Source of the DNA: a virus
Taxonomy: Duplodnaviria; Heunggongvirae; Uroviricota; Caudoviricetes
Reading direction: 5' to 3' (one strand)
DNA: 64,000 nucleotides
IMG/VR virus record: IMGVR_UViG_3300005531_000248
Location: 1-64,000 of that record
Below, one piece after another: positions 2,259-54,525 of this stretch. Under the pieces are notes generated by a model, which did no database searches, was not told where the DNA came from, and was given only the letters and a program-made list of their open reading frames with translations. A program made the position numbers and the translations under genes. The stretch's first letter is position 1. The number at the start of each line of letters is the position of its first letter.

Positions 2259-2269
2259 ATGAGCATCTG

Positions 2270-2340: not shown

Positions 2341-2346
2341 GACTCT

Positions 2347-8781: not shown

Positions 8782-8782
8782 C

Positions 8783-8998: not shown

Positions 8999-9032
8999 AT
9001 TTAAACCGCTAGTTTAGAAAGCTCAAACAGGG

Positions 9033-9443: not shown

Positions 9444-9515
9444 TTACAAGCTTTCGACCATTCTATTTCTCGCGCTGGACTGAGGTTCCAGCGCGTAGAG
9501 ATTGCGCGTCTTCGC

Positions 9516-14125: not shown

Positions 14126-14707
14126 GTGTCGTGCGCCCTTAATCTGTCACTTCAAGTCACACTTTGTCTACAAGGTTACGCCGTGGAAATACCTGAGCGC
14201 AACTTGCTTATAGAACGGTATTTACCGAAAATTCGGGGTATCGCACGCCAGTTATCGTACCGGCTTCCAAGTTCTTTCGAGGTTGAGGATCTGGTCCAGA
14301 TAGCTGTGGTGGCACTGATTGAGGCTTCAGAACGGTATAAAGAAGATACCGGAAGCTCTTGGTGGTCGTTTGTAAGAGACAGATGCTATGGGAGTATGAT
14401 TAATTTCGTTGATGGGGAGATAAGACGGGTCAAGGGCGGCGAAACCAACGGTTTCTCCTCCCTTACAAACCCGCCTCTTCCCTCAGAAGCGCCCGACCGT
14501 TCGCCCAATCCGGAGTGCCAGGCCATCACCCACGAACAGGCCCGGCTGCTGATCCGACGGATCGGCCGGCTGCCCAAGAAACACCGGGCGTACCTGCGGC
14601 TCAAGGTCGATGGCCGGACACATTCTGAAATTGCACGCAGGCTGGGTGTGAGCCTGCCGCGGATCAGCCAGATCAAAACCAAGGTCAGAGAGGAACTGGT
14701 CGCGTGA
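14126..14707 (+). CDS. sigma-70 family RNA polymerase sigma factor (group 3/FliA-like)
   Basis: region 2 DLVQIAVVALIEASERYKEDTGSSWWSFVRDRCYGSM; region 4 LPKKHRAYLRLKVDGRTHSEIARRLGVSLPRISQIKTKV. Confidence 0.7.
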   Translation: MSCALNLSLQVTLCLQGYAVEIPERNLLIERYLPKIRGIARQLSYRLPSSFEVEDLVQIAVVALIEASERYKEDTGSSWWSFVRDRCYGSMINFVDGEIRRVKGGETNGFSSLTNPPLPSEAPDRSPNPECQAITHEQARLLIRRIGRLPKKHRAYLRLKVDGRTHSEIARRLGVSLPRISQIKTKVREELVA

Positions 14708-15906: not shown

Positions 15907-16274
15907 ATCAACGATTGTTTAAAAGGATCGAAATGAAACTTCTTTGGATCGCTACGCTGGCGTTGGCCGCCTTCGCATTGTGCTCCTGCGATGACCCAAC
16001 CATGCCCAAGGCGGCCAAGCCCTGCGAGGTATCGGACGCAACCGCAAAGGCGCAGGCCGAGGCCGCACGAAAGCAGGCCGAGATGCAGATCGAAGTAGAG
16101 AAGCGGTTCAAGGATATCCAGATTGCTACGCTGAACAAGTGCGTGGAATCGGGCGGCGCGCCGGTCATGATGGGCGGCAACGTGGACTGCAAACCGGCTC
16201 AAAAAGGAAACGCCCAGGTTGAAGCCGGGTCCTGGGGATTCCGGGTCAATCCGCCGGCGAAAGGAAATCGATGA
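15903..16274 (+). CDS. putative lipoprotein / secreted protein
   Basis: signal peptide MKLLWIATLALAAFALCSC (lipobox-like LCSC) then Ala/Lys/Glu-rich region. Confidence 0.45.
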   Translation: MNQRLFKRIEMKLLWIATLALAAFALCSCDDPTMPKAAKPCEVSDATAKAQAEAARKQAEMQIEVEKRFKDIQIATLNKCVESGGAPVMMGGNVDCKPAQKGNAQVEAGSWGFRVNPPAKGNR

Positions 16275-17194
16275 CTGAGGGCATTCTCACACCGCAGAAT
16301 ATCGTTTTAGCTTTGCTGGCGATCTTCGCCGTTATAGCCGTGTTCAGCGGGTTTTTCACAATCCACACCAAGCAGGCCGGGCTTGTGGAGCGGCTCGGAA
16401 AGTTCTCCCACATTGCTGGGCCGGGCCTGAATTTCAAAGTGCCTTTCATTGACTCTCTGGTTTACGTCGAAGACCTGAACATGCAACTGATGGACGTGTC
16501 GGTCCAGTCCAAGACCAAGGACGACGCCACGGTTACCATTCCCATCCGCGTTCAGTATTTCGTGCTCGCCGACAAGGTGAAGGAAGCCTACTACGAGCTG
16601 GACGACCCGGAAAAGCAGATCAAGGCCCACGTCGAGAACGTGATTCTGAGCTACATTCCCAAGCTCGATCTTGACGACACGTACAAACAGGAGGACCAGA
16701 TCGCGGCCCGAATCAAGGAAACCCTCACCACGGTGATGGCGAAATTCGGGTACTGCATCGAGAATGCACTCGTTACCAAGATTGTTCCGGCCGATGCCGT
16801 TGTAACGGCCATGAACGAGATCAACGCCGCACGGCGCGAAAAGATCGCGACCGAAGCCAGGGCCGAAGCCGCGAAGATCACACTCGTCAAAAAGGCCGAG
16901 GCCGAAGCGGAAGCTAAGGCTCTGCAAGGCCAGGGCGTAGCGAGAGAACGCAAGGCTATTGTAGATGGACTCCGGGATTCGGTTCAGGACTTCGAGGCGG
17001 GCGTGAAGGGAATCGACGCGCACGACGTCATGGCGTTGGTCATGATGACTCAATACTTCGATGCCTTGAAAGACATCGGAGCGAACAGCAACACGATCCT
17101 TCTGCCGCACTCCCCCGCCGCAGTCGCCGAACTCAGCGCGCAGCTTCGTGACGCTGTGACGGCTGGTTCGCTCGCCGCAAAGGGCAAGCAATAA
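16271..17194 (+). CDS. SPFH/band-7 (stomatin/prohibitin/HflKC-like) domain protein
   Basis: N-terminal TM; core VERLGKF...PGLNFKVPFIDSLVYVEDLNMQLMDV...; Ala/Glu-rich coiled-coil tail. Confidence 0.85.
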   Translation: MTEGILTPQNIVLALLAIFAVIAVFSGFFTIHTKQAGLVERLGKFSHIAGPGLNFKVPFIDSLVYVEDLNMQLMDVSVQSKTKDDATVTIPIRVQYFVLADKVKEAYYELDDPEKQIKAHVENVILSYIPKLDLDDTYKQEDQIAARIKETLTTVMAKFGYCIENALVTKIVPADAVVTAMNEINAARREKIATEARAEAAKITLVKKAEAEAEAKALQGQGVARERKAIVDGLRDSVQDFEAGVKGIDAHDVMALVMMTQYFDALKDIGANSNTILLPHSPAAVAELSAQLRDAVTAGSLAAKGKQ

Positions 17195-23963: not shown

Positions 23964-25493
23964 ATGACCGCTACGGAACTCGACCGGTCCCTGGCCGATG
24001 CCGTGGCGGATTTCTACGCGGATCCGCTCGGGTTCGTACTTTTTGCTTATCCGTGGGGAGAAAAAGGCCCGCTTGAGAACGAAGAAGGCCCCGACGAGAA
24101 TCAGCGCGAGTTCCTGTCCTCCCTTGGCAAAGAGGTCCGCAAGCGAAAATTCGACGGCGCGACCCCGGTCATGCCGATCCAGATGTGCGAGGCCTCCGGC
24201 CATGGCACCGGCAAGAGCGCCATGGGCGCCTGGATCACGGACTGGATACTTTCGACACGCCCCGACTCACTTGGAACCGTCACAGCCGGCACCGCCAAGC
24301 AGCTCGAAACCCGCACCTGGGCAGCAATCCAGTCCTGGAGCGAGCTCTGTATCACGGCTCACTGGTTCGACATCCGGGCCAAAGGCATTTTCTCGAAGGT
24401 CCAGCCCAAGACCTGGAATGTCACCCCGCAAACCTGTAAGCCAGAGAACGCCCAGTCTTTCGCCGGCCAGCACGCCAAACGCTCTACATCCTGGTATTTG
24501 TTCGATGAGGCCTCGGCGGTTCCGGACACGGTCTGGGGCGTGGCATTGGGCGGGCTCACCGACGGCGAGCCGATGTTCTTCGCCTGGGGGCAGCCGGAGC
24601 GCAACACCGGCCAGTTCTATGAAATTACCTCCGGGCGTGAGCGTGACCGCTGGAATCACCGCCGGGTGGATTCACGAAGCTCCAGGTTCACGAACAAAAA
24701 GCTCATTGAGGAGTGGATCCGCGATTACGGCGAGGACTCGGACTGGTGCCGGGTGCGCATCTTCGGCCTGCCGCCGAAAGCCTCGGAGCTGCAATTCATC
24801 GATCGGGAGAGGGTCGAAGCAGCGCAGGAACGGACGGGAAAGCCGCTCGATGACGATCCGCTCATTGCTGGCGTCGACGTTTCGGGCGGAGGCGCCGCGT
24901 GGAACGTCATCCGTTTCCGGCGCGGCATTGACGCGCGCAGCGTGACGGCGGGCGGTACGGTGCCGGCGCCCATACGGATGCCCGGCGAGCACGGTAAAGA
25001 ACGCGAGGCCCTGATCGCCAAATGCGCCGAGATCCTGAACGAGCGATCGAGAGAGAAGCGCATCGCGGCCATGTTCATTGACTCGGCCTTTGGAGCCCCG
25101 GTGTACGAGCGGTTGAAGGCCCTGGGCTTCGATCAGGTATTTGAGATCAACTTCGGCGCGCCGAGCCCCGATAAGCACCAGAAGAACATGCGGGCCTATA
25201 TGTGGGATCGCATGAAGGACTGGCTGCCAACGGGCATGATTGACCGCAACGACGACCGCCTGGCCATCGAATTATGCGCCCCTGGCGCGCAGATGAACCG
25301 CAGCGGCCAGTTGGTCATCGAACCCAAGGAAGATGTGCAGAAGCGGATCGGGCACTCTACCGACGACGCCGACGCCTTAGCTCTGACGTTTGCAAGAAGC
25401 GTTCCGTTCGTAAAGTTCAAGCGTCAACCGGCACCGGAAAAACCTCTGTTGGGCGACCGCGGGTGGATCGGCGACCGCGGCTGGATGCGATAG
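23964..25493 (+). CDS. terminase large subunit
   Basis: Walker A ASGHGTGKSA; Walker B WYLFDEAS; C-terminal nuclease acidic residues DVSGGG...GHSTDDADALALTFA. Confidence 0.85.
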   Translation: MTATELDRSLADAVADFYADPLGFVLFAYPWGEKGPLENEEGPDENQREFLSSLGKEVRKRKFDGATPVMPIQMCEASGHGTGKSAMGAWITDWILSTRPDSLGTVTAGTAKQLETRTWAAIQSWSELCITAHWFDIRAKGIFSKVQPKTWNVTPQTCKPENAQSFAGQHAKRSTSWYLFDEASAVPDTVWGVALGGLTDGEPMFFAWGQPERNTGQFYEITSGRERDRWNHRRVDSRSSRFTNKKLIEEWIRDYGEDSDWCRVRIFGLPPKASELQFIDRERVEAAQERTGKPLDDDPLIAGVDVSGGGAAWNVIRFRRGIDARSVTAGGTVPAPIRMPGEHGKEREALIAKCAEILNERSREKRIAAMFIDSAFGAPVYERLKALGFDQVFEINFGAPSPDKHQKNMRAYMWDRMKDWLPTGMIDRNDDRLAIELCAPGAQMNRSGQLVIEPKEDVQKRIGHSTDDADALALTFARSVPFVKFKRQPAPEKPLLGDRGWIGDRGWMR

Positions 25494-27973: not shown

Positions 27974-28450
27974 GTGCGTACGCTTCAGATCATCGCGCTC
28001 GCGATCATGGGCGCAGCCTGCACGTTTGCGCAGGCGACGTTTCCCTCAACCACGCTGTCGCGCGCAGTCACGGCCACTTATTCCGGGCCGCTCGCGGTCG
28101 CCAGCACAACGAACATCCTGCCGCCAGGCCTGCCGGTCGAAATCAACGGCGTGGGCGATCCCGAGGGCGCGACCATGTACGTCCTGCTGGTCGACACGGA
28201 GGCGATGTGCGTCTACAACGTCGATAAGCACAACAACGTTTATGTGATCCGGGGCTGCCAGGGAACCCAAACGCAAGCCCATGCCGCAGGGGCCAAAGTC
28301 TACACCGGACCGGCAAGTTACTACAGCTTCAACGATCCAGGCGGCTCGTGTAATCCTCCGGCAATCCGGGTGCTGCCGCACATCACTTTACCCTCCGGAA
28401 ATATCTGGCAGTGCACCGGAGGCGTCTGGGTCTTTCAGGGCCAGAACTGA
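27974..28450 (+). CDS. secreted protein, member of 3-copy N-terminal module family
   Basis: signal peptide MRTLQIIALAIMGAACTFAQA; LLVDTEAMCVYNV...VIRG..GT...AH..GAKVYTG parallels 34294 and 40731 proteins. Confidence 0.5.
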   Translation: MRTLQIIALAIMGAACTFAQATFPSTTLSRAVTATYSGPLAVASTTNILPPGLPVEINGVGDPEGATMYVLLVDTEAMCVYNVDKHNNVYVIRGCQGTQTQAHAAGAKVYTGPASYYSFNDPGGSCNPPAIRVLPHITLPSGNIWQCTGGVWVFQGQN

Positions 28451-29153: not shown

Positions 29154-31334
29154 GTGGAACCTCCTTACATTCCCAGTGAAGATCTGGACCGAAGTCTAGC
29201 TCCAGCGCAATCTTCACGTTCCAAAAAGAAGTCCAAGGTTATAGTCTCGGCCAAGAAAAAAGAAGAAGTCATTCGTGATCCGAACGAAGACCTCTTAAAA
29301 CAAGCCCGTGATCGCTTCACTAAAGCAGCCCAGCACGATCAGAAATGGCGCGAACTCGCAACCGAAGAACTGGACTTTGTCGACGGCTTAGAGCACTGGT
29401 CGCAGGAAATGCGGCAGGACCGCAAAGGCGTACCCTGCCTGACCTTCGACCGCATCGGGCCATCGATCGACCAGGTGGTGAACGACGCCCGCCAGGACCC
29501 ACCCGAACCCAAAGTCAGCCCGGTAGGCGGAGGAGCGGACAAAGAGACAGCCGAGATTCTGGAGGGGCTTTACAGGAACATAGCCAACGACTCCAACGGC
29601 AAGATCGCCTTCATGACCGGCTACGAGCACGCGGTCAAGATCGGCCGCGGCTGGTGGCGTGTCAACAAGGTCTACGAATCGGAAGAAGACTTCGTACAAA
29701 AACTCGTAATCCGCCGCATCAAAAATCCGTTCTCGGTCTATCCCGACCCAGCCGCGGACGAATTCGACTACTCGGACATGAACTATTGCTTCGTGACCGA
29801 GGACCTCGACCCCGACCTGTTCAAGCAGTTGTATCCGGACGCCCTTGCTACAGGCATGGCGGACTGGCAGGCGCAGGGCGACCGCATCAAGCAGGACTGG
29901 TACCCGGAATCGAATATTCGGGTAGCCGAGTACTGGTATGTCGAGCGAACCAAGAAAACGCTGTATTTGCTGGACGACGGGCGCAAGGTAACTTCGCTTG
30001 ACCAGAAGGGCGAAGGGACGCAAGTGCTCGCGCAGCGCGAAGTCTACCTGCCTAAAGTGCAGTGGGCCAAGATGACCGGCATGGAAATCCTTGAGCAGGG
30101 CACGTGGGAAGGCAAATGGATTCCCATCATCCCGGTGATCGGCCGCGAAGTGATTATGAAGCAGCGCACCACCATGCGCGGCATGATCCGGCCGGCCATG
30201 GACGCCAATCTGTCCTATGACCTGATGCGGTCGAAACAGGTCGAAACCATCGGCCTTGCTCCCCTGTCGCCCTACCTGGCCGCCGCCGCGGCCATCGAAG
30301 GCCACGAGTACATCTGGGCGGATGCCAACCGCAAGCGCATTGGATACCTGCCCTGGAACCACATGGACGATCAGGGCAATCCAATCCCGAAGCCCGAACG
30401 AAATCTGTCAGAGCCGCCCATCCAGGCCGTGACCATGGCCGTGGCGGCCGCGGATAACGACGTCAAAGCTACGCTGGCAACCTTCGACGCTTCATTAGGT
30501 AACGACAGCCCCGAATCCTCGGGCCGAGCGATTCTGGCCCGGCAGCGCGAGGGCGACAACGCGCACTTCCACTACCACGACAATTTGCGGAGATCGGTCG
30601 AGCATACCGGCAGAGTAATCGTGGATCTGATTCCGCACGTCTACCGCGAAGAGCGCACCATCAACATTTTCGATCCCGACGGCTCACAGCGGGCAGTCCA
30701 GATCAACGCTCAGAAGATTACAGAAGGCGCGGACCGCATTTACAAACTGAATAATCCGGTGGCCCGCTTTGACGCCGTAGTTGGAAACGATCCGAGCTAC
30801 GCCACCAGGCGCCTGCAGGCATCCGCGCAGCTCATGGAATTGTTCCGCGCCGCGCCGCAAGTTCTGGTACGCGCGATCGACCTCATCATCCGCACCTTGG
30901 ATCTGCCGGACGGCGACGAGATCGCGGACCGGTTAAGGCCGCCCGACGTCCAGACGGACGCCAAGGACATCCCGCCGCAGGTCCAGGCCATGGTGGCCAA
31001 ACTCCAGGGCATCATTCAGGCCCAGGGCGTCCAGATCCAGACCTTGAAGGGCATCATCGACAAGAAGATTCTGGAACTCGAATCGAAGGAACGGCAAACC
31101 ACCGAGACCAATCTCACCAGGGTTTTGGTAGCGGAAGTCAGCGGCAAGTCGGCCGAGGCCCAGAAACTCGCCGAACTCGACCACCAATCGGTCAAGCACC
31201 GCCTGGACCTGGCCGCCGATCGCGAGCAGCAGCAGCAGCAAAACCAGCCCGGCCAGCAACCGGCGCAGGCGCAGCCGGAAACTGCAGGCGCAGCCACGAA
31301 CCCGCAGGAAGAACCCGAGCCAGTAGCGCAGTAA
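29154..31334 (+). CDS. portal protein, P22 gp1-like
   Basis: GTG start; W...R.GVPCLTFDRIGPSIDQVVNDARQDPPEPKVSPVGG...AEILEGLYRNIANDSNGKIAFMTGYEHAVKIGRGWWRV parallels P22 portal N-terminal region; 726 aa (P22 gp1 725 aa); Gln-rich C-terminal barrel. Confidence 0.75.
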   Translation: MEPPYIPSEDLDRSLAPAQSSRSKKKSKVIVSAKKKEEVIRDPNEDLLKQARDRFTKAAQHDQKWRELATEELDFVDGLEHWSQEMRQDRKGVPCLTFDRIGPSIDQVVNDARQDPPEPKVSPVGGGADKETAEILEGLYRNIANDSNGKIAFMTGYEHAVKIGRGWWRVNKVYESEEDFVQKLVIRRIKNPFSVYPDPAADEFDYSDMNYCFVTEDLDPDLFKQLYPDALATGMADWQAQGDRIKQDWYPESNIRVAEYWYVERTKKTLYLLDDGRKVTSLDQKGEGTQVLAQREVYLPKVQWAKMTGMEILEQGTWEGKWIPIIPVIGREVIMKQRTTMRGMIRPAMDANLSYDLMRSKQVETIGLAPLSPYLAAAAAIEGHEYIWADANRKRIGYLPWNHMDDQGNPIPKPERNLSEPPIQAVTMAVAAADNDVKATLATFDASLGNDSPESSGRAILARQREGDNAHFHYHDNLRRSVEHTGRVIVDLIPHVYREERTINIFDPDGSQRAVQINAQKITEGADRIYKLNNPVARFDAVVGNDPSYATRRLQASAQLMELFRAAPQVLVRAIDLIIRTLDLPDGDEIADRLRPPDVQTDAKDIPPQVQAMVAKLQGIIQAQGVQIQTLKGIIDKKILELESKERQTTETNLTRVLVAEVSGKSAEAQKLAELDHQSVKHRLDLAADREQQQQQNQPGQQPAQAQPETAGAATNPQEEPEPVAQ

Positions 31335-31361: not shown

Positions 31362-32516
31362 TTGCAGACTGAACAGATGGACGAGTTGAGCATTGCGTCG
31401 ATGACGCAAACGCCCGAAGAGATCCAAAAGGTTCTCGAGAGCTCCGGCCATACGGTCACCGAAACCCAGGTCCTGACCGACGGACCCCTACAAAACGCAC
31501 AAGAAACGGAACAGCCAGCAGAAACCAAGCCGGCCTCCGAGCACGCCGAAGAGACCGCCGCAACCGAGCAGACCCCCGCGCCGGCCAAACCCAAGAAGAA
31601 CACCTTCAAGGCCCTGCGCCAGCAGATTCGCGAGCTGAACCAAAAGCTGGCCGATCAGGAGCGGACCATCTCCGAGATGAAGACGCCGGCCGAAACGAAG
31701 ACTGCAGCTCCTGCAAAGGAAGCCGCGGTCGAGACGGACGAAGATCCGGCTCCCCAAGCGCCCGGTCCAAAACCGAACTTCGAAGACGAGCAGAAATACC
31801 CGCTCGGCCAATACGATCCTCAGTACATTGAGGACCTGGCGGACTGGCGCTACGATGTGCGCGAGCACCAGCGCATCACCAAGGAAAAAGAAAAGCGTGC
31901 ACAGGCCAAGGCCAAAGCCGCCGAAGAAAAAAAGGCAGAGCCAAAAACCGAGGCCAAGCCCGAGCCTTCCGCCGACGACAAACTCATTCAGGAGCGTTGG
32001 GCGGCCGAGCTCGCCTCGCAGCGCGCCAAGAATCCAGAGTTCGAGAAACTACTCGAAAAGACGCATGACAAGATTGTTTTTAGCAATGTGATGGGGTACG
32101 TTTTACCCCGCTTAGAGCGCGGTGGGGATGTGCTGTTTTATCTGGGCCAAAACCCGGATGTTGCGCACCGCATCGCCTCGGCGACCACATTGTCTGAGAA
32201 TGCAACCCGGCTAGAGACCGAAAAAGCTATAGCGCGGGCCTTCAAAGAGCTCGGAAAACTCGAAGATCAACTCGCCCCTCAGGACCCTCCGGAGCCTGAA
32301 GACGAGGAGATCGATGAGGTAGAGCAAGCGAAGCCCGAAGATCCTAAGCCGGCCAAAAAAGAGGTTGTAACGCCCGCCGCCCCCCCGCCCACTCCTGTAG
32401 GAAGCAGGGCCGCAGTGGCCGCAACTCGCGTGACGGAACTTCCGCCTGAAAAGTTGCGATCGCTCGACCCGGATGAATACCGCAGACAGGTAGAGAGCGC
32501 GCGGCGCCGCGGCTAA
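31362..32516 (+). CDS. scaffolding protein candidate
   Basis: acidic Ala/Glu/Lys/Pro-rich helical protein between portal and coat. Confidence 0.5.
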   Translation: MQTEQMDELSIASMTQTPEEIQKVLESSGHTVTETQVLTDGPLQNAQETEQPAETKPASEHAEETAATEQTPAPAKPKKNTFKALRQQIRELNQKLADQERTISEMKTPAETKTAAPAKEAAVETDEDPAPQAPGPKPNFEDEQKYPLGQYDPQYIEDLADWRYDVREHQRITKEKEKRAQAKAKAAEEKKAEPKTEAKPEPSADDKLIQERWAAELASQRAKNPEFEKLLEKTHDKIVFSNVMGYVLPRLERGGDVLFYLGQNPDVAHRIASATTLSENATRLETEKAIARAFKELGKLEDQLAPQDPPEPEDEEIDEVEQAKPEDPKPAKKEVVTPAAPPPTPVGSRAAVAATRVTELPPEKLRSLDPDEYRRQVESARRRG

Positions 32517-32619: not shown

Positions 32620-32766
32620 ATGGCAAATGAATTACTCAACCCGGTCGCGATTCTTCAAGAATCGTTGATGCGGTGGGAGAACAACCTGGTCTTCGCCAAG
32701 CAAGTTAATAGGGAGTTCGATGATAGGTTCGCAGTTCCTGGCGACAAAATCGGGTTAACAGTGTAG
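32620..32766 (+). CDS. major capsid (coat) protein 5' exon / N-arm fragment
   Basis: MANELLNPVAILQESLMRW... resembles P22 coat N-arm ([20 protein letters not shown]); same frame as 33163 ORF; SD aaagga upstream. Confidence 0.5.
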   Translation: MANELLNPVAILQESLMRWENNLVFAKQVNREFDDRFAVPGDKIGLTV

Positions 32767-33162
32767 CCCCACGCAGGAGAGATCCTGCGGAGAAAAACGA
32801 AGTGAATTCGGTGAATCCTACAGCCCGGAAGAGTAACAGCATCGGTGGTGCAACGGCGATGCTGTTAATGCAACTCTGTGTCTGGGCCATGGCGACGCCG
32901 AGCGAAGTCTCAGTGATGAACGAAGGTGCGGCGGCTAAAACCCTGGCCGAGGTTCACCAAAGAGAAACGTGTAACGACTATCCCGCAACGGGAGTAGAGC
33001 TAAGCAGCTCGAAGCGCTTCGGGTCCCAAGCCTCCTAGGCTTCGGATCGTGACATAGTCTGGTCCTCCTCGAAAGGGGAGCAAGTCTGGCTCAGCCCAAT
33101 GAGCGGACGCACACGGCCCTAGCGAGGCCGCTGCCAACGAAAACGACACCGTAAACGCCCGC
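32767..33162 (+). ncRNA. putative group I self-splicing intron (exact boundaries undetermined)
   Basis: P7-like R/S boxes AACGACUAUCC (~32978) and GACAUAGUCUGGUCC (~33043) cf. Tetrahymena AUAUAGUCGGACC; GNRA-capped hairpin CUCCUC-GAAA-GGGGAG after it; splits a coat gene whose two parts are in the same frame. Confidence 0.5.
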
Positions 33163-34257
33163 ATGCCAGTCCGCTTCCGCGGACGAATCGGCGACGGCAT
33201 TCAACTGGAAGACATCCGGGAAACCGTCGTGCCGGTAACCATCAACCGCCTGTGGGGCTGTGATCTGGACATCTCAGATCAAGACCTCACGCTAACCATC
33301 GACCGGTTCGGAGAGCGCTACATCGAGCCGGCCGTGCAGAGAATCGCGAACATGATCGACGGCGAAGGCCTCGATCTGTACGCCGACGTCTATAACCTGG
33401 CGCAATTGAACGTGACGCCCGGCGTCACTCCCACCACCCGCACCGCTTACACCGCTGCCGGTGTCACGCTGTCCAATTCCGGCGCCCCCTACGGCAGTCT
33501 CCGGGCCTTGGTGGTTTCTCCAGAGATGGAAGCGGCCGCCATCGAATTCGGTGCAACGCTCTTCAACCCGCCCAAGACCATCTCCGAGCAGTATCTTTCG
33601 GGAACCATGGGCCAGGCGCTGGGCTTCAAGTGGTCGATGGATCAGAACGTCTCGCGCGCTACCGTTGGCCTCGCCGGCGGAACGCCCGTGGTTAACGGCG
33701 CGAACCAGACCGGTTCTTCGCTGATCACCAGCGGCTGGACCGCCTCAACCCAGGTTCTGAATACCGGCGACATCATCAAGGTCGCGGGCGTCAACTCCGT
33801 CAACCCGATCTCCTATCGGGACACCGGGCAGCTCCGGACGTTCGTGGTGGGACCCAACTGCCCCGCCTCGGATGGATCTGGCAACCTGACGATTCCGATC
33901 TCGCCCGACATCAACATCGACGTCACCAGCCCCTTCCAGACCGTGACGCAATCGCCCGCCAATAACGCGGCCATCTTTGTTTACAACACCGCGGCTGCCA
34001 ACCTGGCGAACATCTCGGGCGTTTCCTCGCCCCAGGCGCTCGCTTTCCACCGCGATGCCTTTGCGCTCGCCATCGTCAACCTTGAACTGCCGGGCGGGCT
34101 CGACTGGTCCGAGCGCATCTCTAATCCCAAGGTCGGGATCAGCATGCGCCTGACGCGCGGCTTCGACATGCGCACCAACCGGCGCTACACGCGCTTAGAA
34201 GCATTCGGCGGATGGAAGACTCTCCGGCCGGAATTCGCGTGCCGGATCGCCGGCTAA
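33163..34257 (+). CDS. major capsid (coat) protein, P22 gp5-like, 3' part
   Basis: RETVVPVTINRLWG~SNTIWMPVEQE; ..PAVQRIANMID..~..IQSAARKLANNVE; IKVAGVNSV...TFVVG~ISFAGVKFL...TFSVV; C-terminal TLRPEF~ATRPEA. Confidence 0.8.
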   Translation: MPVRFRGRIGDGIQLEDIRETVVPVTINRLWGCDLDISDQDLTLTIDRFGERYIEPAVQRIANMIDGEGLDLYADVYNLAQLNVTPGVTPTTRTAYTAAGVTLSNSGAPYGSLRALVVSPEMEAAAIEFGATLFNPPKTISEQYLSGTMGQALGFKWSMDQNVSRATVGLAGGTPVVNGANQTGSSLITSGWTASTQVLNTGDIIKVAGVNSVNPISYRDTGQLRTFVVGPNCPASDGSGNLTIPISPDINIDVTSPFQTVTQSPANNAAIFVYNTAAANLANISGVSSPQALAFHRDAFALAIVNLELPGGLDWSERISNPKVGISMRLTRGFDMRTNRRYTRLEAFGGWKTLRPEFACRIAG

Positions 34258-34293: not shown

Positions 34294-35046
34294 ATGAAAC
34301 ACATCCTGAAACTCATTGCGGGTCTCTCTCTCGCTGCGGCTTCGCTCTTCGGGCAAGCCGCCATGACCTCCACCACGCTTTCGACCGCCGTGCCGTTGTC
34401 GCAGCGCGGCTTCAACACCACCGTGTTTGTTGCCAGCGCCACCGGCATCACCGCCCCCAGCGTTTCGACGCCTCAGGGCGGCGTGGGTTCTCCGACCGGC
34501 GGGCCGAACCTCACCGTTCTGTTCGTGGACAAAGAACTGATGCGCGTAAACGCCGTATCGGGAACCACGATCACGGTGGAGCGCGGCTACTCCGGCACCC
34601 CGGTTATGGCGCACAACTCCGGCGCCACGGTCTGGGTCGGAACGCCGAGCCAGTTCTATAACATCGATCCGTTCGGCGCCTGCACCGCTAGCGCTGTTCC
34701 AGTATTGCCGCGCGTGGTTTACACAACCGGCAACGTCTGGAACTGCGGATCGAACGGCCAATGGTTCGCCTGGACGTATTTCAATACCGCTCCTCAGGTC
34801 GGTACGGCTATCGCGTCGGCGGCGACCATCGCGCCCACGACTCCGGTGGTGCACGTAACCGGCACCACGACCATCAACACCATCACCGTGCCCTCAGGAT
34901 TTCCCAAGGGTGGCACGCTGATTCTTATTCCGGACGGCCTCTGGTCGACCGGGACTTCGGGCAACATCGCCATCGCGACCACGGGTGTCGTGTCGAAAGC
35001 GCTCCTTGAAGTTTGGGACGGCACGAAGTTTTACCCGAGTTATTAA
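34294..35046 (+). CDS. secreted protein, paralog of 27974..28450
   Basis: MKHILKLIAGLSLAAASLFGQA; LFVDKELMRVNAV..TTITVERGYSGT..AH.SGATVWVG; terminator-like hairpin CCTGCGG...CCGCAGGctcttttt at 35064-35100. Confidence 0.5.
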   Translation: MKHILKLIAGLSLAAASLFGQAAMTSTTLSTAVPLSQRGFNTTVFVASATGITAPSVSTPQGGVGSPTGGPNLTVLFVDKELMRVNAVSGTTITVERGYSGTPVMAHNSGATVWVGTPSQFYNIDPFGACTASAVPVLPRVVYTTGNVWNCGSNGQWFAWTYFNTAPQVGTAIASAATIAPTTPVVHVTGTTTINTITVPSGFPKGGTLILIPDGLWSTGTSGNIAIATTGVVSKALLEVWDGTKFYPSY

Positions 35047-35108
35047 CCACTTCCCTCCTAGTGACCTGCGGGGTCCGACGTGACTCCGCAGGCTCTTTTT
35101 CAACAACC

Positions 35109-35411
35109 ATGACATTCAGACCGCTATACAACCAGATCGTAGTGCGCATGGATTCGCCCAAAGAAATGCATGGCGCGCTGCACATCCCCGATAACGCTCC
35201 TGAAAGCTCGCGGACCTCGGGACATGCTGCATTCGGGACCGTGCTCAAGACCGGGGAAGGCCATCGCCGTAAAAACGGTTCGATTCAACCGCTGGACGTG
35301 AAGCCGGGAGACCGCATTGCCTATCACCGCAACGCCGGCGAAAGGCACTTGATCGAGGGAGAAACCGTGCTGTTGATCCCGGAAGAGCACGTTCTGGGAG
35401 TTTTGGAGTAA
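35109..35411 (+). CDS. groES: GroES/Cpn10-family co-chaperonin (phage-encoded)
   Basis: MTFRPLYNQIVVR...GALHIPDNA...GTVLKTGEG...QPLDVKPGDRIAY...GETVLLIPEEHVLGVLE aligns along full length with E. coli GroES (RPLHDRVIVK...PLDVKVGDIVIF...EEVLIMSESDILAIVE); 100 aa. Confidence 0.85.
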   Translation: MTFRPLYNQIVVRMDSPKEMHGALHIPDNAPESSRTSGHAAFGTVLKTGEGHRRKNGSIQPLDVKPGDRIAYHRNAGERHLIEGETVLLIPEEHVLGVLE

Positions 35412-35414
35412 CCC

Positions 35415-35810
35415 ATGCGAATCAACGTAACGCTCACCATCGGCGCCGCCCCGATCAACATCACCACCGGTATGACGGCGGCCCAGATGGCCGCGGCCGG
35501 CATGACATCGCAGCTGGCTCCCGCCGGTGCGACGTTTTTCGTCCAGCCCATGCGCCTGCGCTCGATTTCGTTCCAGATGATTCACGGCGGATCGGGCTTG
35601 GGCTATGTGCTTACCGGTTCAGTCGGACGTGCGCCAGCGGCTGTTTTTGCTGCCTCCGACCTGGTCGCAGAGCTTGACTTCGCCTCCGCGCAGAGTCCGG
35701 GCGGGTCCTGGAGCGACTCGGACGACTTCGGGCGCATTCAGGGTGAGAACTACTGGGTACATGGCGCCAATCCAGGGGACAAAGTACAGGTTTCCTACGA
35801 CACCTACTGA
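35415..35810 (+). CDS. hypothetical virion-associated protein
   Basis: ORF track; in structural gene string. Confidence 0.45.
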   Translation: MRINVTLTIGAAPINITTGMTAAQMAAAGMTSQLAPAGATFFVQPMRLRSISFQMIHGGSGLGYVLTGSVGRAPAAVFAASDLVAELDFASAQSPGGSWSDSDDFGRIQGENYWVHGANPGDKVQVSYDTY

Positions 35811-38262: not shown

Positions 38263-38658
38263 ATGGGCTGCGCCTTCTTCGGACCGAATGTCGAGATCAG
38301 CGCACAATCGGGCGGCTGCAACGCCTTCGCGCATGCCGATTCGGGCAAGTACGAGATTCCCTGGCTCGGACTGTTTACCAAAGTTCAATTAGGTTACGCC
38401 GAGAACAAGCCGGGGTTTTCCTGCAAGCGCTGCTCTCACGTCGACCTTGCCGCGGAAGACTGCGAACGCGTGGATAAGAACTCGGAAGGCGATACGCCCG
38501 GCCTCATTGCAGCCAATGCCTACTGCAACCAGTGGGAGCCGGACAAGAAGCGCGCACCGCTCTCAAGCGAAAAACTGCTCAATATGATCTCGGCCGTCAA
38601 GAAGGACGCAGCGCGGATGTCGCCTGACGAATACCGCACCATGCGCGAGGCCGCATAA
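38263..38658 (+). CDS. hypothetical Cys-containing protein (frame open upstream to 38157 without ATG)
   Basis: ORF track; in-frame upstream ...YRCFECVFAKPTGQG before Met. Confidence 0.4.
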   Translation: MGCAFFGPNVEISAQSGGCNAFAHADSGKYEIPWLGLFTKVQLGYAENKPGFSCKRCSHVDLAAEDCERVDKNSEGDTPGLIAANAYCNQWEPDKKRAPLSSEKLLNMISAVKKDAARMSPDEYRTMREAA

Positions 38659-39458
38659 TGCCGACCAATCCACTTTTCAACACGCAACTCTTCGGAGGCG
38701 GATCCGCGCTTTCGGGCGCCATCCTGGTGTCGGACATCATCTATTCGGCCTACAGGATTGCCGGCGTCTTAGGGGCGCCTGGACGAGGCTACGGTGCAGA
38801 TGCAGCTAATGACGGGCTGAAGGTCCTGAACTCAATGGTGGACGCCTGGCAGGCTGAGCGCCTGATGGTCTGGGCAATTCTGCGCAGCGTGTTCAACATC
38901 GTCGCCAACCAGCAGACTTATGTGCTCGGCACCACCGGGACAGTGGACTGGAAACTCCAACGCCCGGAACGAATCGAGCAGGCCGGATTCATTTTCAACA
39001 ACCTGAACCCCACGATCGAGGAGCCGTTCAAAATCCTGACCTACCAGGAGTGGGCCGCGCTTTCGCCCAAAAGCTTAAACTCGACCATTCCTTACATGCT
39101 GTATTACGAGCCGTTCGTACCCAACGGCCACGTGAATCTCTGGCCTGTTCCCCTGGCCAACTGGCAGATCGCGCTGTACACCTGGCAGAACCTGACGACC
39201 TTCCCCTCGACCAACACGGCCGTAGTCGTTCCTCCGGCCTATCAGGAAGCGCTCGAATACAATCTGGCCAAAATGCTGGCCATGCGGTTTCAGAAGCGCG
39301 CAAACATGTCTGCGGAAGCGATGAATCAAGCCCGCGCATCCAAGGCGCGCATCAAGGCCATCAATCTGACGCCGCTTGAAATGGTGGTTGAGGCCGCAAT
39401 GCAAGGCCGGCCCGGCGAACGCGGACGCTGGAATATCCTGACGGGCAAGTACTGGTAA
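38658..39458 (+). CDS. virion structural protein, paralog A
   Basis: shares VVPPAYQEALEYNLAKMLA / LWPVP motifs with 39985..40704. Confidence 0.5.
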   Translation: MPTNPLFNTQLFGGGSALSGAILVSDIIYSAYRIAGVLGAPGRGYGADAANDGLKVLNSMVDAWQAERLMVWAILRSVFNIVANQQTYVLGTTGTVDWKLQRPERIEQAGFIFNNLNPTIEEPFKILTYQEWAALSPKSLNSTIPYMLYYEPFVPNGHVNLWPVPLANWQIALYTWQNLTTFPSTNTAVVVPPAYQEALEYNLAKMLAMRFQKRANMSAEAMNQARASKARIKAINLTPLEMVVEAAMQGRPGERGRWNILTGKYW

Positions 39459-39731: not shown

Positions 39732-40058
39732 TCACGCGAATTGCTTGGGAGTGTACCTCTCGCGGAGTAGTTCAGAACAGGACTCGCAGATCACCTCGAA
39801 GGTGTTGTAGCGCATCCGGACATTCGCCGGAGCGATCGCTCCGTGGGTAAGTTCAGACACCGAACAATTTACGGCTGCGGCATGCCCGCACTCAAGTTTC
39901 GCTAGCGTCCCCTCTTCCACTTCCCGGAAGGTCCGCACCCCGACCCACACCGTTCCATCCCAGGCCATATAGCGACATTCTCCCATGACAGGCTTAGATC
40001 TCATCTCGCGCTCCATGCGCATCACCGGGGCTTTAGCGCAGGGCGAATCTCCCGGCAA
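39732..40058 (-). CDS. possible antisense-strand zinc-finger ORF
   Basis: CxxC-type Cys pairs; only minus ORF inside plus-strand structural block; overlaps 5' end of 39985 gene. Confidence 0.25.
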   Translation of the reverse strand: MPGDSPCAKAPVMRMEREMRSKPVMGECRYMAWDGTVWVGVRTFREVEEGTLAKLECGHAAAVNCSVSELTHGAIAPANVRMRYNTFEVICESCSELLRERYTPKQFA

Positions 40059-40704
40059 CGACGAAGCCGTCGACTTTCTGCAGGCCTTGAATGACCTGAT
40101 CGATGGACTGTCGGCCGAGGAGCCAATGATCTACGCGCTTCCGGCGGCTCAGTTTGCCCTCACAAACTTAACCGGCGTGTACGCCATGGGCCCGACCGCC
40201 CCGGCGCCGTTCAATGTTCCGCGTCCGGTCAAGATCGCGCGCGCCAGTTTCATACAGGCCGTCACCGCGCTGCGCTTCGACCTGGACATCATCAACGCCG
40301 AACAGTACAACCTGATCCCTGAAAAGAATAACGTCGCCCAGGTGCCCCGGAAACTTTATCCGGACTACGCCGTGCCCAACATGAACCTGTCGCTCTGGCC
40401 GTACCCCTCGCAAGGCGGCCAGCTCGAGCTGATCACCTGGCAGGCCGTATCGGCGGTCCCGACGCTTCAGACCGTCCTTGTCCTACCTCCGGCCTACGCC
40501 GAGCTGCTCGAGTACATGCTCGCAGTCCGGATTTGGCCGGAACTCAATCCTGGCGTACCGCTCGACCAGGGCATCGTGCAACAGGCGCTCGATCGCAAGA
40601 CCGCAGTCATGACATTCAACCGGGCCATCCGGCTGGGGACCAGCGAAGGCACGCCGCCGGCCGCTCCGCCCACTGCTCCGATCACCGCGCCGACAGCGCA
40701 GTAA
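39985..40704 (+). CDS. virion structural protein, paralog B
   Basis: VLPPAYAELLEYMLAVRIW / LWPYP; Pro/Ala-rich tail. Confidence 0.5.
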   Translation: MTGLDLISRSMRITGALAQGESPGNDEAVDFLQALNDLIDGLSAEEPMIYALPAAQFALTNLTGVYAMGPTAPAPFNVPRPVKIARASFIQAVTALRFDLDIINAEQYNLIPEKNNVAQVPRKLYPDYAVPNMNLSLWPYPSQGGQLELITWQAVSAVPTLQTVLVLPPAYAELLEYMLAVRIWPELNPGVPLDQGIVQQALDRKTAVMTFNRAIRLGTSEGTPPAAPPTAPITAPTAQ

Positions 40705-45321: not shown

Positions 45322-45828
45322 ATGAGCGCCAATATCCGGCTGGTCGAACCGTTTCCCATGACGGCCTGGAAAGACCTGCACCACTGGCTGAACGCGAGCG
45401 TCATTGCCGCAACCGATCAGTTTCCGCGGGATGAGCGTGAGTTTCACGTGAAAATCGGCGAGTCGCTGGAGACCGCGCGCAGTTGGGCGGTCATCGATCA
45501 GGACTGCGGCAAGATTTCAGGCGCCCTGATCTTCGAGCCCATTGGACGCATGGGAGCCAGAACGTACGTTGCAAGTTCGCGGGCGATCTGGGGAACAGGG
45601 CTCATGGACGAAGCCGCGCGCGTGGCCTTGCATAAGGTCTTCACCGAAAACCCGGAGCTAGGCTACGTGCTGGGAATGGTTACGTCCAACAACTATCCGG
45701 CCCGCGCTTTTAATGAGCGCCTGGGATTTCGGGTGAAGAATATTTTGCCCGACTACGTGATCTCAAACGGAACGCGGCGCGACATGATCGTCTACGAACT
45801 CACCCGGGAGATATGGCGCACGACATAA
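45322..45828 (+). CDS. GNAT-family N-acetyltransferase (probable)
   Basis: ...YPARAFNERLGFRV... C-terminal GNAT motif. Confidence 0.5.
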   Translation: MSANIRLVEPFPMTAWKDLHHWLNASVIAATDQFPRDEREFHVKIGESLETARSWAVIDQDCGKISGALIFEPIGRMGARTYVASSRAIWGTGLMDEAARVALHKVFTENPELGYVLGMVTSNNYPARAFNERLGFRVKNILPDYVISNGTRRDMIVYELTREIWRTT

Positions 45829-53811: not shown

Positions 53812-54525
53812 ATGCCTGAAATTCACATCCGCGACGTCGTGAAGGTGATCCGCAAAGGTAAACCTGAGCCAACTAACGGCCGCGCGATACGCCGTGTCAC
53901 CGGGAGCGCGAATATCCCGCTCAACGAGCAGGGACGAGCGCAGGTGAAACAGATGGCGGCCAAGTATTCGCACCCGTTTAGCAACGTCTTCTCGGGGCCC
54001 GAAGATCGATCGCTCGAGACGGCCGAACATTTTGGCGACCCCATCACGCTCAAAGGCCTGGACGCCTGGTTCCGCGGCGCGCTCGAAGGAAGGCCGGCGC
54101 ACACCGTCTACGCCGCCATGCGCGCGCTCATTCTCAAACCGGATTCGCGGCCGCCGGGCGTAAGCCCGATTTCAGGCAAGCCCGGCGAGACGTATAAAGA
54201 GTTTCTGAAGCCGCTCATGATCGTCATGCGCGCCGCGCAGGAGCATCTGAGGCAGGGCGAACGCATCTTGCTGGTCACGTCGGGCGGAAACCTCCAAGCC
54301 ATCGATCATTTCGCGGCCGAGGGGTTCCCGCTCGATCCAGATCGGAAAGACTTTATCAAGCTCGCCCAGAAACCGTACTGGTCCGCAACCGGGCAGCTAT
54401 TCTTCCTTGAAAAGACCGGACTGGCCAAGGTGTCGGACAACGATAAGCCCGGCATCTACGTGATGGAACACAGCTCGACGGATTTCAATCCTACTCCACT
54501 TTCAAATTCCGCAAATTCCAATTAG
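53812..54525 (+). CDS. histidine-phosphatase-superfamily-like protein lacking the catalytic His residues
   Basis: IRRVTGSANIPLNEQGRAQVKQMA resembles RHG..w...PLt..G..QA but His->Val; later LLVTSGGNLQAI in place of HGG. Confidence 0.35.
   Translation: MPEIHIRDVVKVIRKGKPEPTNGRAIRRVTGSANIPLNEQGRAQVKQMAAKYSHPFSNVFSGPEDRSLETAEHFGDPITLKGLDAWFRGALEGRPAHTVYAAMRALILKPDSRPPGVSPISGKPGETYKEFLKPLMIVMRAAQEHLRQGERILLVTSGGNLQAIDHFAAEGFPLDPDRKDFIKLAQKPYWSATGQLFFLEKTGLAKVSDNDKPGIYVMEHSSTDFNPTPLSNSANSN

What the first reader, a model, noticed from the sequence alone, without database searches (positions are those of the whole stretch)
35109..35411. Phage-encoded GroES (Cpn10) homolog immediately downstream of the coat gene
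The 100-aa product aligns over its full length with bacterial GroES: RPL..(I/V)VV, the mobile-loop region, PLDVKxGD, and the C-terminal (E/D)xxLLI..E.(V/I)L..(V/L)E. Phage co-chaperonins such as T4 gp31 and RB49 CocO are rare. The position next to a P22-type coat gene suggests the phage tunes host GroEL for capsid folding.
Basis: partly seen in the sequence, partly recalled or inferred. Interest (0 to 1): 0.6.

Follow-up and report, generated by a model that had tools for sequence, protein, structure and literature searches.

The report
Phage GroES co-chaperonin in head module
A phage carries its own diverged copy of the small chaperonin lid protein GroES among its capsid-assembly genes, probably to use the host's GroEL folding machine for building virions; such phage GroES genes are already well known, so this is a new member of a known kind.

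Summary
The ORF at 35109..35411 (+) is real and encodes a 100-aa Cpn10/GroES homolog. It scores 51.8 bits against Pfam PF00166 (cut-off 21.1) over the full profile. The predicted fold is a GroES beta-barrel with a disordered mobile loop, and the top 35 PDB fold matches are all Cpn10.

The gene sits in a phage head module: terminase, P22-type portal, scaffold, P22-type coat. It is not immediately after the coat gene. A conserved 250-aa gene and a strong terminator-like hairpin lie between them.

It is not a recent host capture. It belongs to a diverged, phage-borne subfamily with the signature N8-Q9, H52, E78-x-H80, P91-x-E93-H94. This subfamily fails the classical Cpn10 signature and all cellular NCBIfam GroES cut-offs. 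Its members recur between the coat and adaptor genes of related phages, sometimes as tandem fusions.

The mobile loop is 6 residues longer than canonical and reads G-A-L-H-I instead of G-G-I-I-I. No GroEL is encoded in the window.

The most likely role is a lid for host GroEL during late morphogenesis, with the coat as the leading but unproven client. Phage GroES genes are not rare: 165 of 2178 GenBank phages carried one in 2017.

A side finding may be more notable: the coat gene is split by a 390-nt group I intron.

The parts
35109..35411 (+). GroES/Cpn10-family co-chaperonin gene (100 aa plus stop)
   Evidence: Pfam PF00166 51.8 bits against cut-off 21.1. PHROG 3188. PDB GroES sequence hits. 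AlphaFold2 model and Foldseek matches. Scores 134.1 bits against a subfamily HMM built without it, versus 82.1 bits against an HMM of the closest bacterial GroES.
35157..35234 (+). Mobile-loop segment (residues 17-42): PKEMHG-A-L-H-I-PDNAPESSRTSGHAAF. It is 6 residues longer than canonical GroES, and the GroEL-contact tripeptide reads L-H-I.
   Evidence: Alignment with E. coli and nearest GroES. pLDDT below 50 for residues 18-37. Residue statistics at position 25.
35065..35100 (+). Terminator-like hairpin (11-bp stem, 8 G-C pairs) followed by CTCTTTTT, ending 8 nt before the GroES ATG
   Evidence: Consensus scan. RNA fold dG -24.6 kcal/mol, z -4.43 against shuffles.
34294..35046 (+). Conserved 250-aa gene between coat and GroES. 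It has a signal-peptide-like N-terminus and weak similarity to a tail-fibre-type domain. It follows the coat gene in most relatives and may be a head decoration or fibre protein.
   Evidence: Weak PHROG tail-protein hits. tblastn synteny in L001-L005, L052, L056, L062 and L072.
32620..32755 (+). P22-type coat gene, exon 1
   Evidence: Translation. Homologs of the N-terminal 48 aa are contiguous with the rest of the coat in intron-less relatives.
32756..33145 (+). Group I intron (390 nt, no ORF) splitting the coat gene
   Evidence: Rfam RF00028 44.6 bits, E 3.9e-10, full model 1-253. Splicing after U32755 and G33145 restores KIGYTVNARMPVRF, identical to the uninterrupted coat of L052, and gives a 415-aa product. 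The homologous intron in L002 scores 88.7 bits.
33146..34257 (+). P22-type coat gene, exon 2. This is the candidate GroEL/GroES client.
   Evidence: PF11651 98 bits, matching from profile position 63. PHROG 283 major head protein 1.3e-54.
35415..35810 (+). 131-aa gene starting 3 nt after the GroES stop. It is conserved in relatives, its function is unknown, and it is probably co-transcribed with GroES.
   Evidence: ORF list. tblastn synteny. No Pfam, PHROG or NCBIfam hit.
29154..31334 (+). P22-like portal gene (context)
   Evidence: PF16510 496.6 bits. PHROG 156.
38658..39458 (+). SU10-type head-tail adaptor gene. It marks the downstream end of the interval in which the GroES subfamily gene recurs in relatives.
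   Evidence: PF24175 30.8 bits. PHROG 12985/637. Synteny.

Best explanation
The gene encodes a functional phage co-chaperonin. A GroES-fold subunit assembles into a ring lid and docks through its flexible mobile loop (G22-A-L24-H25-I26-P27) onto the apical domains of the host's GroEL. The window encodes no GroEL of its own. The gene is transcribed with the late morphogenesis genes, by read-through of the hairpin that follows the coat and decoration genes. It supplies a phage-specific lid while large amounts of virion protein are being made. The 44-kDa P22-type coat protein is the leading candidate client.

Shown: family membership, the fold, the disordered loop, the phage context, and recurrence of the same diverged subfamily in the coat-to-adaptor interval of related phages.

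Inferred: heptamer formation, GroEL binding, timing of expression, and the identity of the client.

Also inferred: the subfamily's coordinated replacements in the first strand (D8-R9 to N8-Q9) and at the start of the last strand (K/R91-x-S/D93-D/E94 to P91-x-E93-H94). In GroES these two strands pair between neighbouring subunits (Hunt et al. 1996, from my own knowledge). The replacements may therefore keep phage and host subunits from mixing. The 6-residue-longer loop may raise the lid, as the longer loop of T4 gp31 does.
For: - Cpn10 profile match well above threshold over the full length.
- GroES barrel with a low-confidence loop at residues 18-37, and only Cpn10 among the top 35 PDB matches.
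- The loop keeps a Gly and a hydrophobic-x-hydrophobic-Pro motif, as do all subfamily members. A central His, Tyr, Phe or Trp is frequent among retrieved homologs: H in 25, F in 44 and Y in 37 of 326 aligned domains. Marine et al. found polar or charged residues at the 2nd or 3rd position in 23% of virome GroES.
- The roof hairpin and PLDVKPGD are retained.
- No GroEL and no second GroES in the window.
- The protein scores 134.1 bits against the subfamily HMM built without it, versus 82.1 bits against the closest bacterial GroES. An NJ tree places it in that clade with bootstrap 57.
- Subfamily genes lie between coat and adaptor genes in L052, L056, L057, L058, L060, L062, L071 and L072, whose coats are 54-65% identical to the window's.
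- Precedent: host GroEL/GroES or phage lids are needed for head or tail assembly in several phages, and gp31 and CocO are needed for the major capsid protein (PMC5649160).
Against: - No experiment exists, and neither GroEL binding nor oligomer state can be computed with these tools.
- The central residue of the GroEL-contact tripeptide is His.
- The protein fails the classical Cpn10 signature, which matched 113 of 119 of the nearest database GroES.
- It scores 17-60 bits against cellular NCBIfam GroES models whose cut-offs are 96-136.
- The aromatic residue usual at position 75 (W/Y, equivalent to E. coli Tyr71) is Asn.
- Linkage to the coat gene is loose. The closest IMG/VR relatives (L001-L004) carry their GroES-like gene upstream of the portal gene. 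L005 and most of the MAG-borne relatives L063-L070 show none within 10 kb. This coat family can therefore fold without a phage GroES.
- A 44-kDa coat does not need an enlarged cage.
- A strong terminator-like hairpin separates GroES from the coat gene, and there is no Shine-Dalgarno sequence before the ATG.
- GC3 is 0.66, against 0.74-0.80 in neighbouring genes.
Confidence: 0.65

Rival explanations
1. A GroES-fold protein with a GroEL-independent role in virion assembly. It would act as a small ring- or oligomer-forming assembly factor, head-completion protein or structural protein that merely descends from GroES.
For: - It sits among structural genes between the coat and the adaptors.
- The subfamily has lost the classical signature and falls far below the cellular GroES cut-offs.
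- Relatives carry large insertions, including a Zn-ribbon in the roof hairpin in L001-L004, C-terminal extensions of about 40 aa, and tandem fusions.
- Several conserved histidines (H52, H80, H94) have no counterpart in GroES.
Against: - The disordered loop with Gly plus a hydrophobic-x-hydrophobic-Pro motif is kept in every member, and it has no known purpose other than GroEL docking.
- The barrel core and roof hairpin are canonical.
- Known diverged phage lids (gp31, CocO) still work with GroEL.
Confidence: 0.12
2. A GroEL hijacker or blocker. The phage lid out-competes host GroES to redirect or shut down host protein folding, or to counter a chaperone-dependent defence, rather than to fold a particular virion protein.
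For: - The altered contact tripeptide and longer loop could change affinity for GroEL.
- The interface residues differ from host-type GroES.
- The gene is accessory within the wider clade.
Against: - Its position and orientation place it in the late morphogenesis block, not among early host-takeover genes.
- The same subfamily is tied to the coat-adaptor interval in nine contigs.
- I found no precedent for this role in the papers read.
Confidence: 0.1
3. A passenger gene recently captured from the host's groES, with no phage-specific adaptation.
For: The best named database hits are alphaproteobacterial GroES at 44-49% identity. GC3 is lower than in neighbouring genes.
Against: - No cellular sequence exceeds 51% identity in exhaustive searches of 1.8 billion representatives.
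- The protein scores 52 bits higher against the phage subfamily than against the closest bacterial set.
- It shares eight signature positions with phage-borne relatives.
- Relatives of this phage point to Acidobacteriota rather than Alphaproteobacteria as hosts.
Confidence: 0.04

Closest known systems
Bacterial GroES / Cpn10 (e.g. E. coli GroES, PDB 1AON chain O; alphaproteobacterial 104-aa GroES)
   Same: About 100 aa. Full-length Pfam Cpn10 match. The same beta-barrel, roof hairpin, PLDVKPGD motif and flexible mobile loop. TM 0.75 to 1aon_O.
   Different: - Only 33% identical to E. coli GroES and 44-49% to the nearest bacterial ones.
- No adjacent groEL.
- The loop is 6 residues longer and has L-H-I in place of I-V-L or I-I-I.
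- D8-R9 becomes N-Q, the W/Y at position 75 becomes N, and K/R91..D94 becomes P..H.
- It fails the classical signature and the NCBIfam cut-offs.
T4 gp31 and RB49 CocO (phage co-chaperonins required for major capsid protein folding)
   Same: A phage-encoded lid with no phage GroEL. Presumed to act on host GroEL for head assembly. The mobile loop is lengthened relative to GroES.
   Different: gp31 and CocO lack the roof hairpin and are only remote relatives of GroES (PMC5649160). The window protein keeps the hairpin and is a clear sequence homolog. Foldseek to 1g31 gives only E 1e-2, TM 0.58, 9% identity. Its presumed client is 44 kDa, not the 56-kDa gp23, so there is no evident need for a larger cage.
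GroES-only phages of viromes and isolates (Marine et al. 2017 clusters; pelagiphages HTVC023P/HTVC027P; Microcystis phage Mvi-JY20; Vibrio phages D71/D81/D82/D93; Bacillus phage 0305phi8-36)
   Same: - A true GroES homolog carried without GroEL.
- It is often located near head genes. Marine et al. describe a GroES, 'kinesin-like' gene, head protein order. More distant relatives here (L010, L018) have GroES directly upstream of the portal gene.
- Polar residues inside the hydrophobic tripeptide are common, at 23%.
   Different: At most about 31% identical to any GroES in the 50,697 deposited phage records. It belongs to a separate subfamily defined here by the NQ / GH / ExH / PxEH signature. 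Its position is downstream of the coat gene rather than upstream of the portal gene.
Chloroplast Cpn20-type tandem co-chaperonins
   Same: Some members of the same phage subfamily (P0121, P0122, P0136) are head-to-tail double GroES proteins.
   Different: The window protein itself has a single domain. The phage tandems are unrelated in origin, and only their second domain carries the subfamily signature.

Membership tests
Cpn10 / GroES (Pfam PF00166) | Full-length profile match above the curated gathering score | tested here: met
   51.8 bits against cut-off 21.1, E 8.6e-14, profile positions 2-92 of 93. PHROG 3188 E 8.4e-12.
Cpn10 / GroES (Pfam PF00166) | GroES beta-barrel fold with roof hairpin | tested here: met
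   AlphaFold2 core pLDDT above 90, pTM 0.71. Foldseek PDB ranks 1-35 are all Cpn10, TM up to 0.76. Roof hairpin segment GEGHRRKNGSIQPLDV has canonical length.
Cpn10 / GroES (Pfam PF00166) | Flexible mobile loop carrying Gly followed by a hydrophobic tripeptide that contacts GroEL | tested here: inconclusive
   The loop is present and predicted disordered at residues 18-37. The motif is G22-A23-L24-H25-I26, so the outer two positions are hydrophobic and the central one is His, and the loop is 6 residues longer. His at this position occurs in 25 of 326 aligned homolog domains. Polar residues here are reported in 23% of virome GroES.
Cpn10 / GroES (Pfam PF00166) | Classical Cpn10 signature pattern (PROSITE PS00681, pattern recalled from memory) | tested here: not met
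   The regex matches E. coli GroES and 113 of 119 nearest database GroES. It does not match the window protein, which fails at Q9 and H25, nor any of 12 subfamily members.
Cellular GroES orthologs (NCBIfam PRK00364 models) | Score at or above the curated cut-off of an equivalog or subfamily model | tested here: not met
   The best score is 59.6 bits against a cut-off of 133. All 11 models fall far below their cut-offs of 96-136.
Cellular GroES orthologs (NCBIfam PRK00364 models) | groES-groEL operon | tested here: not met
   tblastn of E. coli GroEL against the window finds nothing better than E 1.1. The neighbours are phage structural genes.
Cpn10 / GroES (Pfam PF00166) | Heptameric ring that binds GroEL in the presence of nucleotide and supports folding | not testable with these tools
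   This needs biochemistry or a multimer structure prediction. Only a monomer model could be made.
T4 gp31 / RB49 CocO type phage co-chaperonins | Roof hairpin deleted and only remote similarity to GroES | tested here: not met
   The roof hairpin is retained and the protein is a clear GroES sequence homolog. 1g31 ranks only 36th, E 1e-2, TM 0.58.
Phage 'NQ / PxEH' GroES subfamily (defined here) | Signature N8-Q9, G-H52, G77-E78-x-H80, P91-x-E93-H94 | tested here: met
   The window protein reads N Q .. H .. E.H .. P.EH. The pattern is shared with P0121d2, P0122d2, P0124, P0136d2, P0137, P0139, P0141, P0143, P0153 and P0196. It scores 134.1 bits against the subfamily HMM built without it.
Phage 'NQ / PxEH' GroES subfamily (defined here) | Located in the morphogenesis module between the P22-type coat and SU10-type adaptor genes of related phages | tested here: met
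   The window, L052, L056, L057, L058, L060, L062, L071 and L072 all show this arrangement.

The most novel reading that the evidence does not exclude
The NQ / PxEH proteins may be a capsid-dedicated co-chaperonin lineage that has co-evolved with the P22-type coat in a clade of large soil phages, possibly infecting Acidobacteriota. On this reading three changes are adaptive:
- A rebuilt inter-subunit interface (Q9/H94 replacing the R9-D/E94 pair) stops mixing with host GroES.
- A lengthened mobile loop and varied roofs (Zn-ribbon insertions in relatives) alter the folding chamber.
- Tandem fusions fix the stoichiometry.

This would be a second, independent example of a client-specialised phage lid outside the T4-like phages.
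Probability: 0.2. Interest if true: 0.55.

Novelty: new member of a known kind. Interest (0 to 1): 0.3.

Why it matters
Phage-encoded GroES lids are a known way for viruses to use the host's main folding machine. This one adds a diverged, apparently undescribed subfamily tied to the head module of a poorly known group of large environmental phages.

If the coordinated interface and loop changes prove functional, the subfamily would be a natural experiment in how a lid can be re-tuned, or kept from mixing with the host lid, without a change of fold. As an isolated gene annotation it changes little. Its practical value is a correct start codon and name for a protein that the public gene call truncates.

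Tried and rejected
- Megablast of 20 kb around the gene against 50,697 phage records found no match. The phage has no close deposited relative.
- Searching IMG/VR with the GroES protein itself gave no confirmed relative. Relatives were reached through the coat protein instead.
- Look-up of the contig of the identical public protein P0001 failed because it is not on record.
- I looked for a phage GroEL or a second GroES in the window and found none.
- Recent capture from an alphaproteobacterial host was rejected on the HMM score difference and the shared signature.
- Alternative starts were rejected. TTG 35013 overlaps the upstream gene and the hairpin. ATG 35148 (Met14, used by the public call) deletes the conserved first strand.
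- Coat-related isolates were considered as a known relative carrying the same gene: Xanthomonas phage PBR31 at 39.9% coat identity, and Pseudomonas PAE2, Vibrio VvAW1 and Rhodoferax P26218 at 31-35%. None appeared among the GroES tblastn hits.
- The count of terminator-like sites in the region is not above shuffles (4 found against 6.0 +/- 2.7). Only the strength of this particular hairpin is notable.

Full report
**1. The observation**

The ORF at 35109..35411 on the + strand exists and translates to MTFRPLYNQIVVRMDSPKEMHGALHIPDNAPESSRTSGHAAFGTVLKTGEGHRRKNGSIQPLDVKPGDRIAYHRNAGERHLIEGETVLLIPEEHVLGVLE.

- It matches Pfam Cpn10 (PF00166) at 51.8 bits, E 8.6e-14. The gathering score is 21.1 and the match covers profile positions 2-92 of 93.
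- It matches PHROG 3188 'co-chaperonin GroES' at E 8.4e-12.
- It matches 17 solved Cpn10 chains by sequence, best E 2.9e-10.
- An AlphaFold2 model from a 45-sequence alignment has mean pLDDT 81 and pTM 0.71. The barrel is above 90 and residues 18-37 are below 50, as expected for a flexible mobile loop.
- Foldseek against the PDB returns only Cpn10/GroES chains in ranks 1-35, with TM up to 0.76. T4 gp31 appears at rank 36 with E 1e-2.

**2. Surroundings**

Nearly all long ORFs of the window are on the + strand, and no tRNA genes or Rfam families at gathering score were found.

The genes upstream of the finding are:
- a large terminase (23964..25493);
- a P22-like portal (29154..31334, PF16510 496.6 bits);
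- a scaffold-like protein (31362..32516);
- a P22-type coat (PF11651 98 bits).

Downstream lie two paralogous SU10-type adaptor genes (38658..39458 and 39985..40704) and large tail-like ORFs. The first 23 kb carry DNA methylases, a HerA-like ATPase, an SPFH protein and a sigma-70-like factor. The window is phage DNA throughout.

The GroES gene is not immediately after the coat gene. A 250-aa gene (34294..35046), conserved after the coat gene in relatives, comes first. It is followed by an 11-bp G+C-rich hairpin with a T-run (35065..35100, dG -24.6 kcal/mol, z -4.43). That hairpin ends 8 nt before the ATG. The next gene (35415..35810) starts 3 nt after the GroES stop. GroES therefore heads the block that follows a probable attenuator placed behind the abundant head proteins.

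There is no Shine-Dalgarno sequence before the ATG, but many genes in this window lack one.

**3. No GroEL, one GroES**

tblastn with E. coli GroEL finds nothing in the window (best E 1.1). HMMs of GroES find only this one gene. Any chaperonin partner must come from the host, or from parts of the genome outside the window. The identical public protein P0001 is recorded on a contig of 160 kb.

**4. What kind of GroES it is**

A word-indexed search of 5.8 billion proteins and an exhaustive HMMER search of 1.84 billion representatives were run. Apart from the identical but 5'-truncated public call P0001 (87 aa, starting at Met14), they find nothing above 51% identity. The best named hits are alphaproteobacterial 104-aa GroES at 44-49%.

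The exhaustive search exposed a set of diverged proteins that share unusual residues with the window protein:
- RPL(F/H/Y)-N-Q-(I/V)V in place of RPLxDR;
- G-x-G-H-R;
- G-E-x-H;
- (I/L/T)-P-x-E-H-(V/I)-L in place of M-K/R-E-S/D-D-I/V-L.

Over 326 aligned domains the canonical states are D8, R9, T/S78, V/I80, K/R91, S/D93 and D/E94. The N-Q / E-x-H / P-x-E-H states co-occur in the same few proteins.

The window protein scores 134.1 bits against an HMM of this subfamily built without it, versus 82.1 bits against an HMM of its 44 closest bacterial homologs. A neighbour-joining tree places it in that clade with bootstrap 57, which is modest.

The subfamily lies outside cellular GroES by curated criteria:
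- All 11 NCBIfam GroES models score 17-60 bits against cut-offs of 96-136.
- The classical Cpn10 signature (recalled from memory) matched E. coli and 113 of 119 nearest database GroES. It matches neither the window protein nor any of 12 subfamily members.

**5. Where the subfamily lives**

Contigs encoding subfamily members turned out to be relatives of this phage. Their coats are 54-65% identical and their adaptors 36-47% identical to the window's.

| Locus | Gene order around the GroES gene |
|---|---|
| L052 | coat, g34294 homolog, three small genes, GroES, adaptor |
| L062 | scaffold, coat, g34294, g35415, 88-aa gene, GroES |
| L056 | portal, scaffold, coat, g34294, g35415 ... integrase (-), GroES |
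| L057, L058, L060 | GroES a few genes before the adaptors |
| L071, L072 (contigs of 106 and 86 kb) | a tandem double-GroES protein in the same interval |

Only P0221, a looser relative that shares just the MHGALH loop, sits in a replication module.

Relatives found through the coat protein in IMG/VR show a second arrangement.
- The closest ones (L001-L004, coat 64-72% identical) carry a GroES-like gene upstream of the portal gene. It has a CxxC...CxxC insertion in the roof hairpin and a related ...DQ... / ...EQH... signature.
- More distant relatives (L010, L018 and others) have a GroES directly before the portal gene.
- In L002 the homologs of g34294 and g35415 are 170 nt apart, so the window's slot is empty there.
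- L005 and most of the MAG-borne relatives L063-L070 have no GroES within 10 kb.

The gene is thus a frequent but movable and dispensable accessory of the morphogenesis module in this clade.

**6. Features bearing on mechanism**

The mobile loop keeps a glycine and the pattern hydrophobic-x-hydrophobic-Pro (G22-A-L24-H25-I26-P27). The central residue is His where bacteria mostly have Ile or Val. The descending limb is 6 residues longer than in canonical GroES.

Central His, Tyr, Phe or Trp is not rare among the retrieved homologs. Marine et al. reported polar or charged residues at the second or third position in 23% of 1479 virome GroES. The roof hairpin has normal length, unlike in gp31 and CocO. 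The aromatic residue usual at position 75 is Asn.

From established structural knowledge (Hunt et al. 1996, my own recollection), neighbouring GroES subunits are joined mainly by pairing of the first and last beta-strands. The signature replacements fall in or next to exactly these strands. I therefore infer, but could not test, a co-adapted interface that might prevent mixed rings with host GroES.

The spliced coat is 415 aa, about 44 kDa. That fits a normal GroEL cage, so a size argument like that made for T4 gp23 does not apply.

**7. Interpretation**

The best-supported reading is a working phage lid for host GroEL, expressed with the late genes, with the coat as the prime but unproven client (confidence 0.65).

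The rivals are:
- a GroEL-independent assembly role for a GroES-derived protein (0.12);
- a GroEL hijacker or blocker (0.10);
- a recently captured passenger gene (0.04, largely refuted).

**8. Comparison with what is known**

Phage co-chaperonins are well documented. gp31 and CocO are required for major capsid folding. In 2017, 165 of 2178 GenBank phages carried a small-subunit gene, and GroES clusters were among the most abundant virome genes (PMC5649160). Pelagiphages HTVC023P and HTVC027P carry GroES. BFVD holds 69 viral structural matches at E <= 1e-3.

The deposited phage GroES most similar to this one are only about 31% identical: Acinetobacter phage MD-2021a, Microcystis phage Mvi-JY20 and Vibrio phages D71-D93. 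The finding is therefore a new member, from an apparently undescribed subfamily, of a known kind.

**9. Side finding: a split coat gene**

The coat gene is split. Exon 1 (32620..32755) and exon 2 (33146..34257) are in the same frame, separated by 390 nt that are full of stop codons.

- Rfam's group I intron model matches end to end at 44.6 bits, E 3.9e-10, just under the gathering score of 50.
- Splicing after U32755 and after G33145 gives ...KIGYTVNARMPVRF..., identical to the uninterrupted coat of L052, and a 415-aa product of the same length as the intron-less homologs.
- The homologous site in L002 holds a group I intron scoring 88.7 bits.
- L001, L003, L005 and L072 have 1.0-2.2 kb interruptions there.

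**10. Host hint**

Of eight relatives in the genome collection (coat 43-47% identical), three are labelled Acidobacteriota. One of these lies inside a 446-kb Candidatus Sulfopaludibacter contig. This is weak evidence, and MAG binning can misplace phage contigs.

Noticed in passing
window 32620..34257 (intron 32756..33145): The P22-type major coat gene is interrupted by a 390-nt ORF-less group I intron (RF00028 44.6 bits, E 3.9e-10). Splicing after U32755 and G33145 restores the conserved KIGYTVNARMPVRF and gives a 415-aa coat.
   Followed up: yes
L002 9705..9923; L001 ~8940..10001; L003 ~8620..10001; L005 ~8981..10001; L072 ~1632..3819: Relatives carry interruptions at the same coat position. 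L002 has a group I intron scoring 88.7 bits and a second gap of about 295 nt. L001, L003, L005 and L072 have gaps of 1.0-2.2 kb that may hold homing-endonuclease ORFs; a NUMOD3-like gene is called just downstream of the coat in L072. GenBank MW202674.1 annotates 'P22 coat protein (x2)', which may be another split coat.
   Followed up: partly
window 35065..35100: A strong terminator-like hairpin (11-bp stem, dG -24.6 kcal/mol, z -4.4) with a T-run lies directly between the coat/decoration genes and GroES. It is a likely attenuator that sets the ratio of head protein to downstream gene products.
   Followed up: partly
window 35109..35147 (public protein P0001): The only public gene call for this protein starts at Met14 (87 aa). 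It removes the conserved first beta-strand MTFRPLYNQIVVR.
   Followed up: yes
L071 8001..8672 (P0122); L072 8001..8657 (P0136); P0121: Related phages (contigs of 86-106 kb) encode tandem double-GroES proteins in the same coat-adaptor interval. Only the second domain carries the NQ / PxEH signature. The architecture resembles Cpn20, in phages.
   Followed up: partly
L001 2482..2967; L002 1973..2515; L003 1811..2464; L004 694..1329: The closest IMG/VR relatives have a GroES-like gene upstream of the portal gene. It carries a large CxxC...CxxC (zinc-ribbon-like) insertion in place of the simple roof hairpin.
   Followed up: partly
window 34294..35046 and 27974..28450: The 250-aa gene after the coat has a signal-peptide-like N-terminus (MKHILKLIAGLSLAAASLFGQAA) and weak tail-fibre-domain similarity. 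In tblastn against related loci the 158-aa product of 27974..28450 hits overlapping stretches, which suggests a shared domain. It may be a head fibre or decoration protein.
   Followed up: partly
window 38658..39458 and 39985..40704: Two paralogous SU10-type adaptor genes (PHROG 12985) lie close together. The same duplication is seen in relatives.
   Followed up: no
window 617..1912, 6859..8781, 10860..13631, 14126..14707, 16271..17194, 45322..45828, 53812..54525: Accessory genes elsewhere in the window: a C5 cytosine methylase, a HerA-like ATPase, a 923-aa protein with an N6/N4 methylase domain, a sigma-70-like factor, an SPFH/Band 7 protein, a GNAT acetyltransferase and a histidine phosphatase.
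   Followed up: no
L063 (446-kb contig), L066, L068: Coat relatives (43-47% identical) occur in MAG contigs labelled Candidatus Sulfopaludibacter, Bryobacteraceae and Terriglobales. This hints at Acidobacteriota hosts for the clade. Other labels (Pseudobdellovibrionaceae, Chlamydiae, Gammaproteobacteria) disagree.
   Followed up: partly
window 35109..35411: GC3 of the GroES gene is 0.66, against 0.74-0.80 for the portal, coat, g34294 and g35415. This may reflect lower expression or a different history.
   Followed up: no
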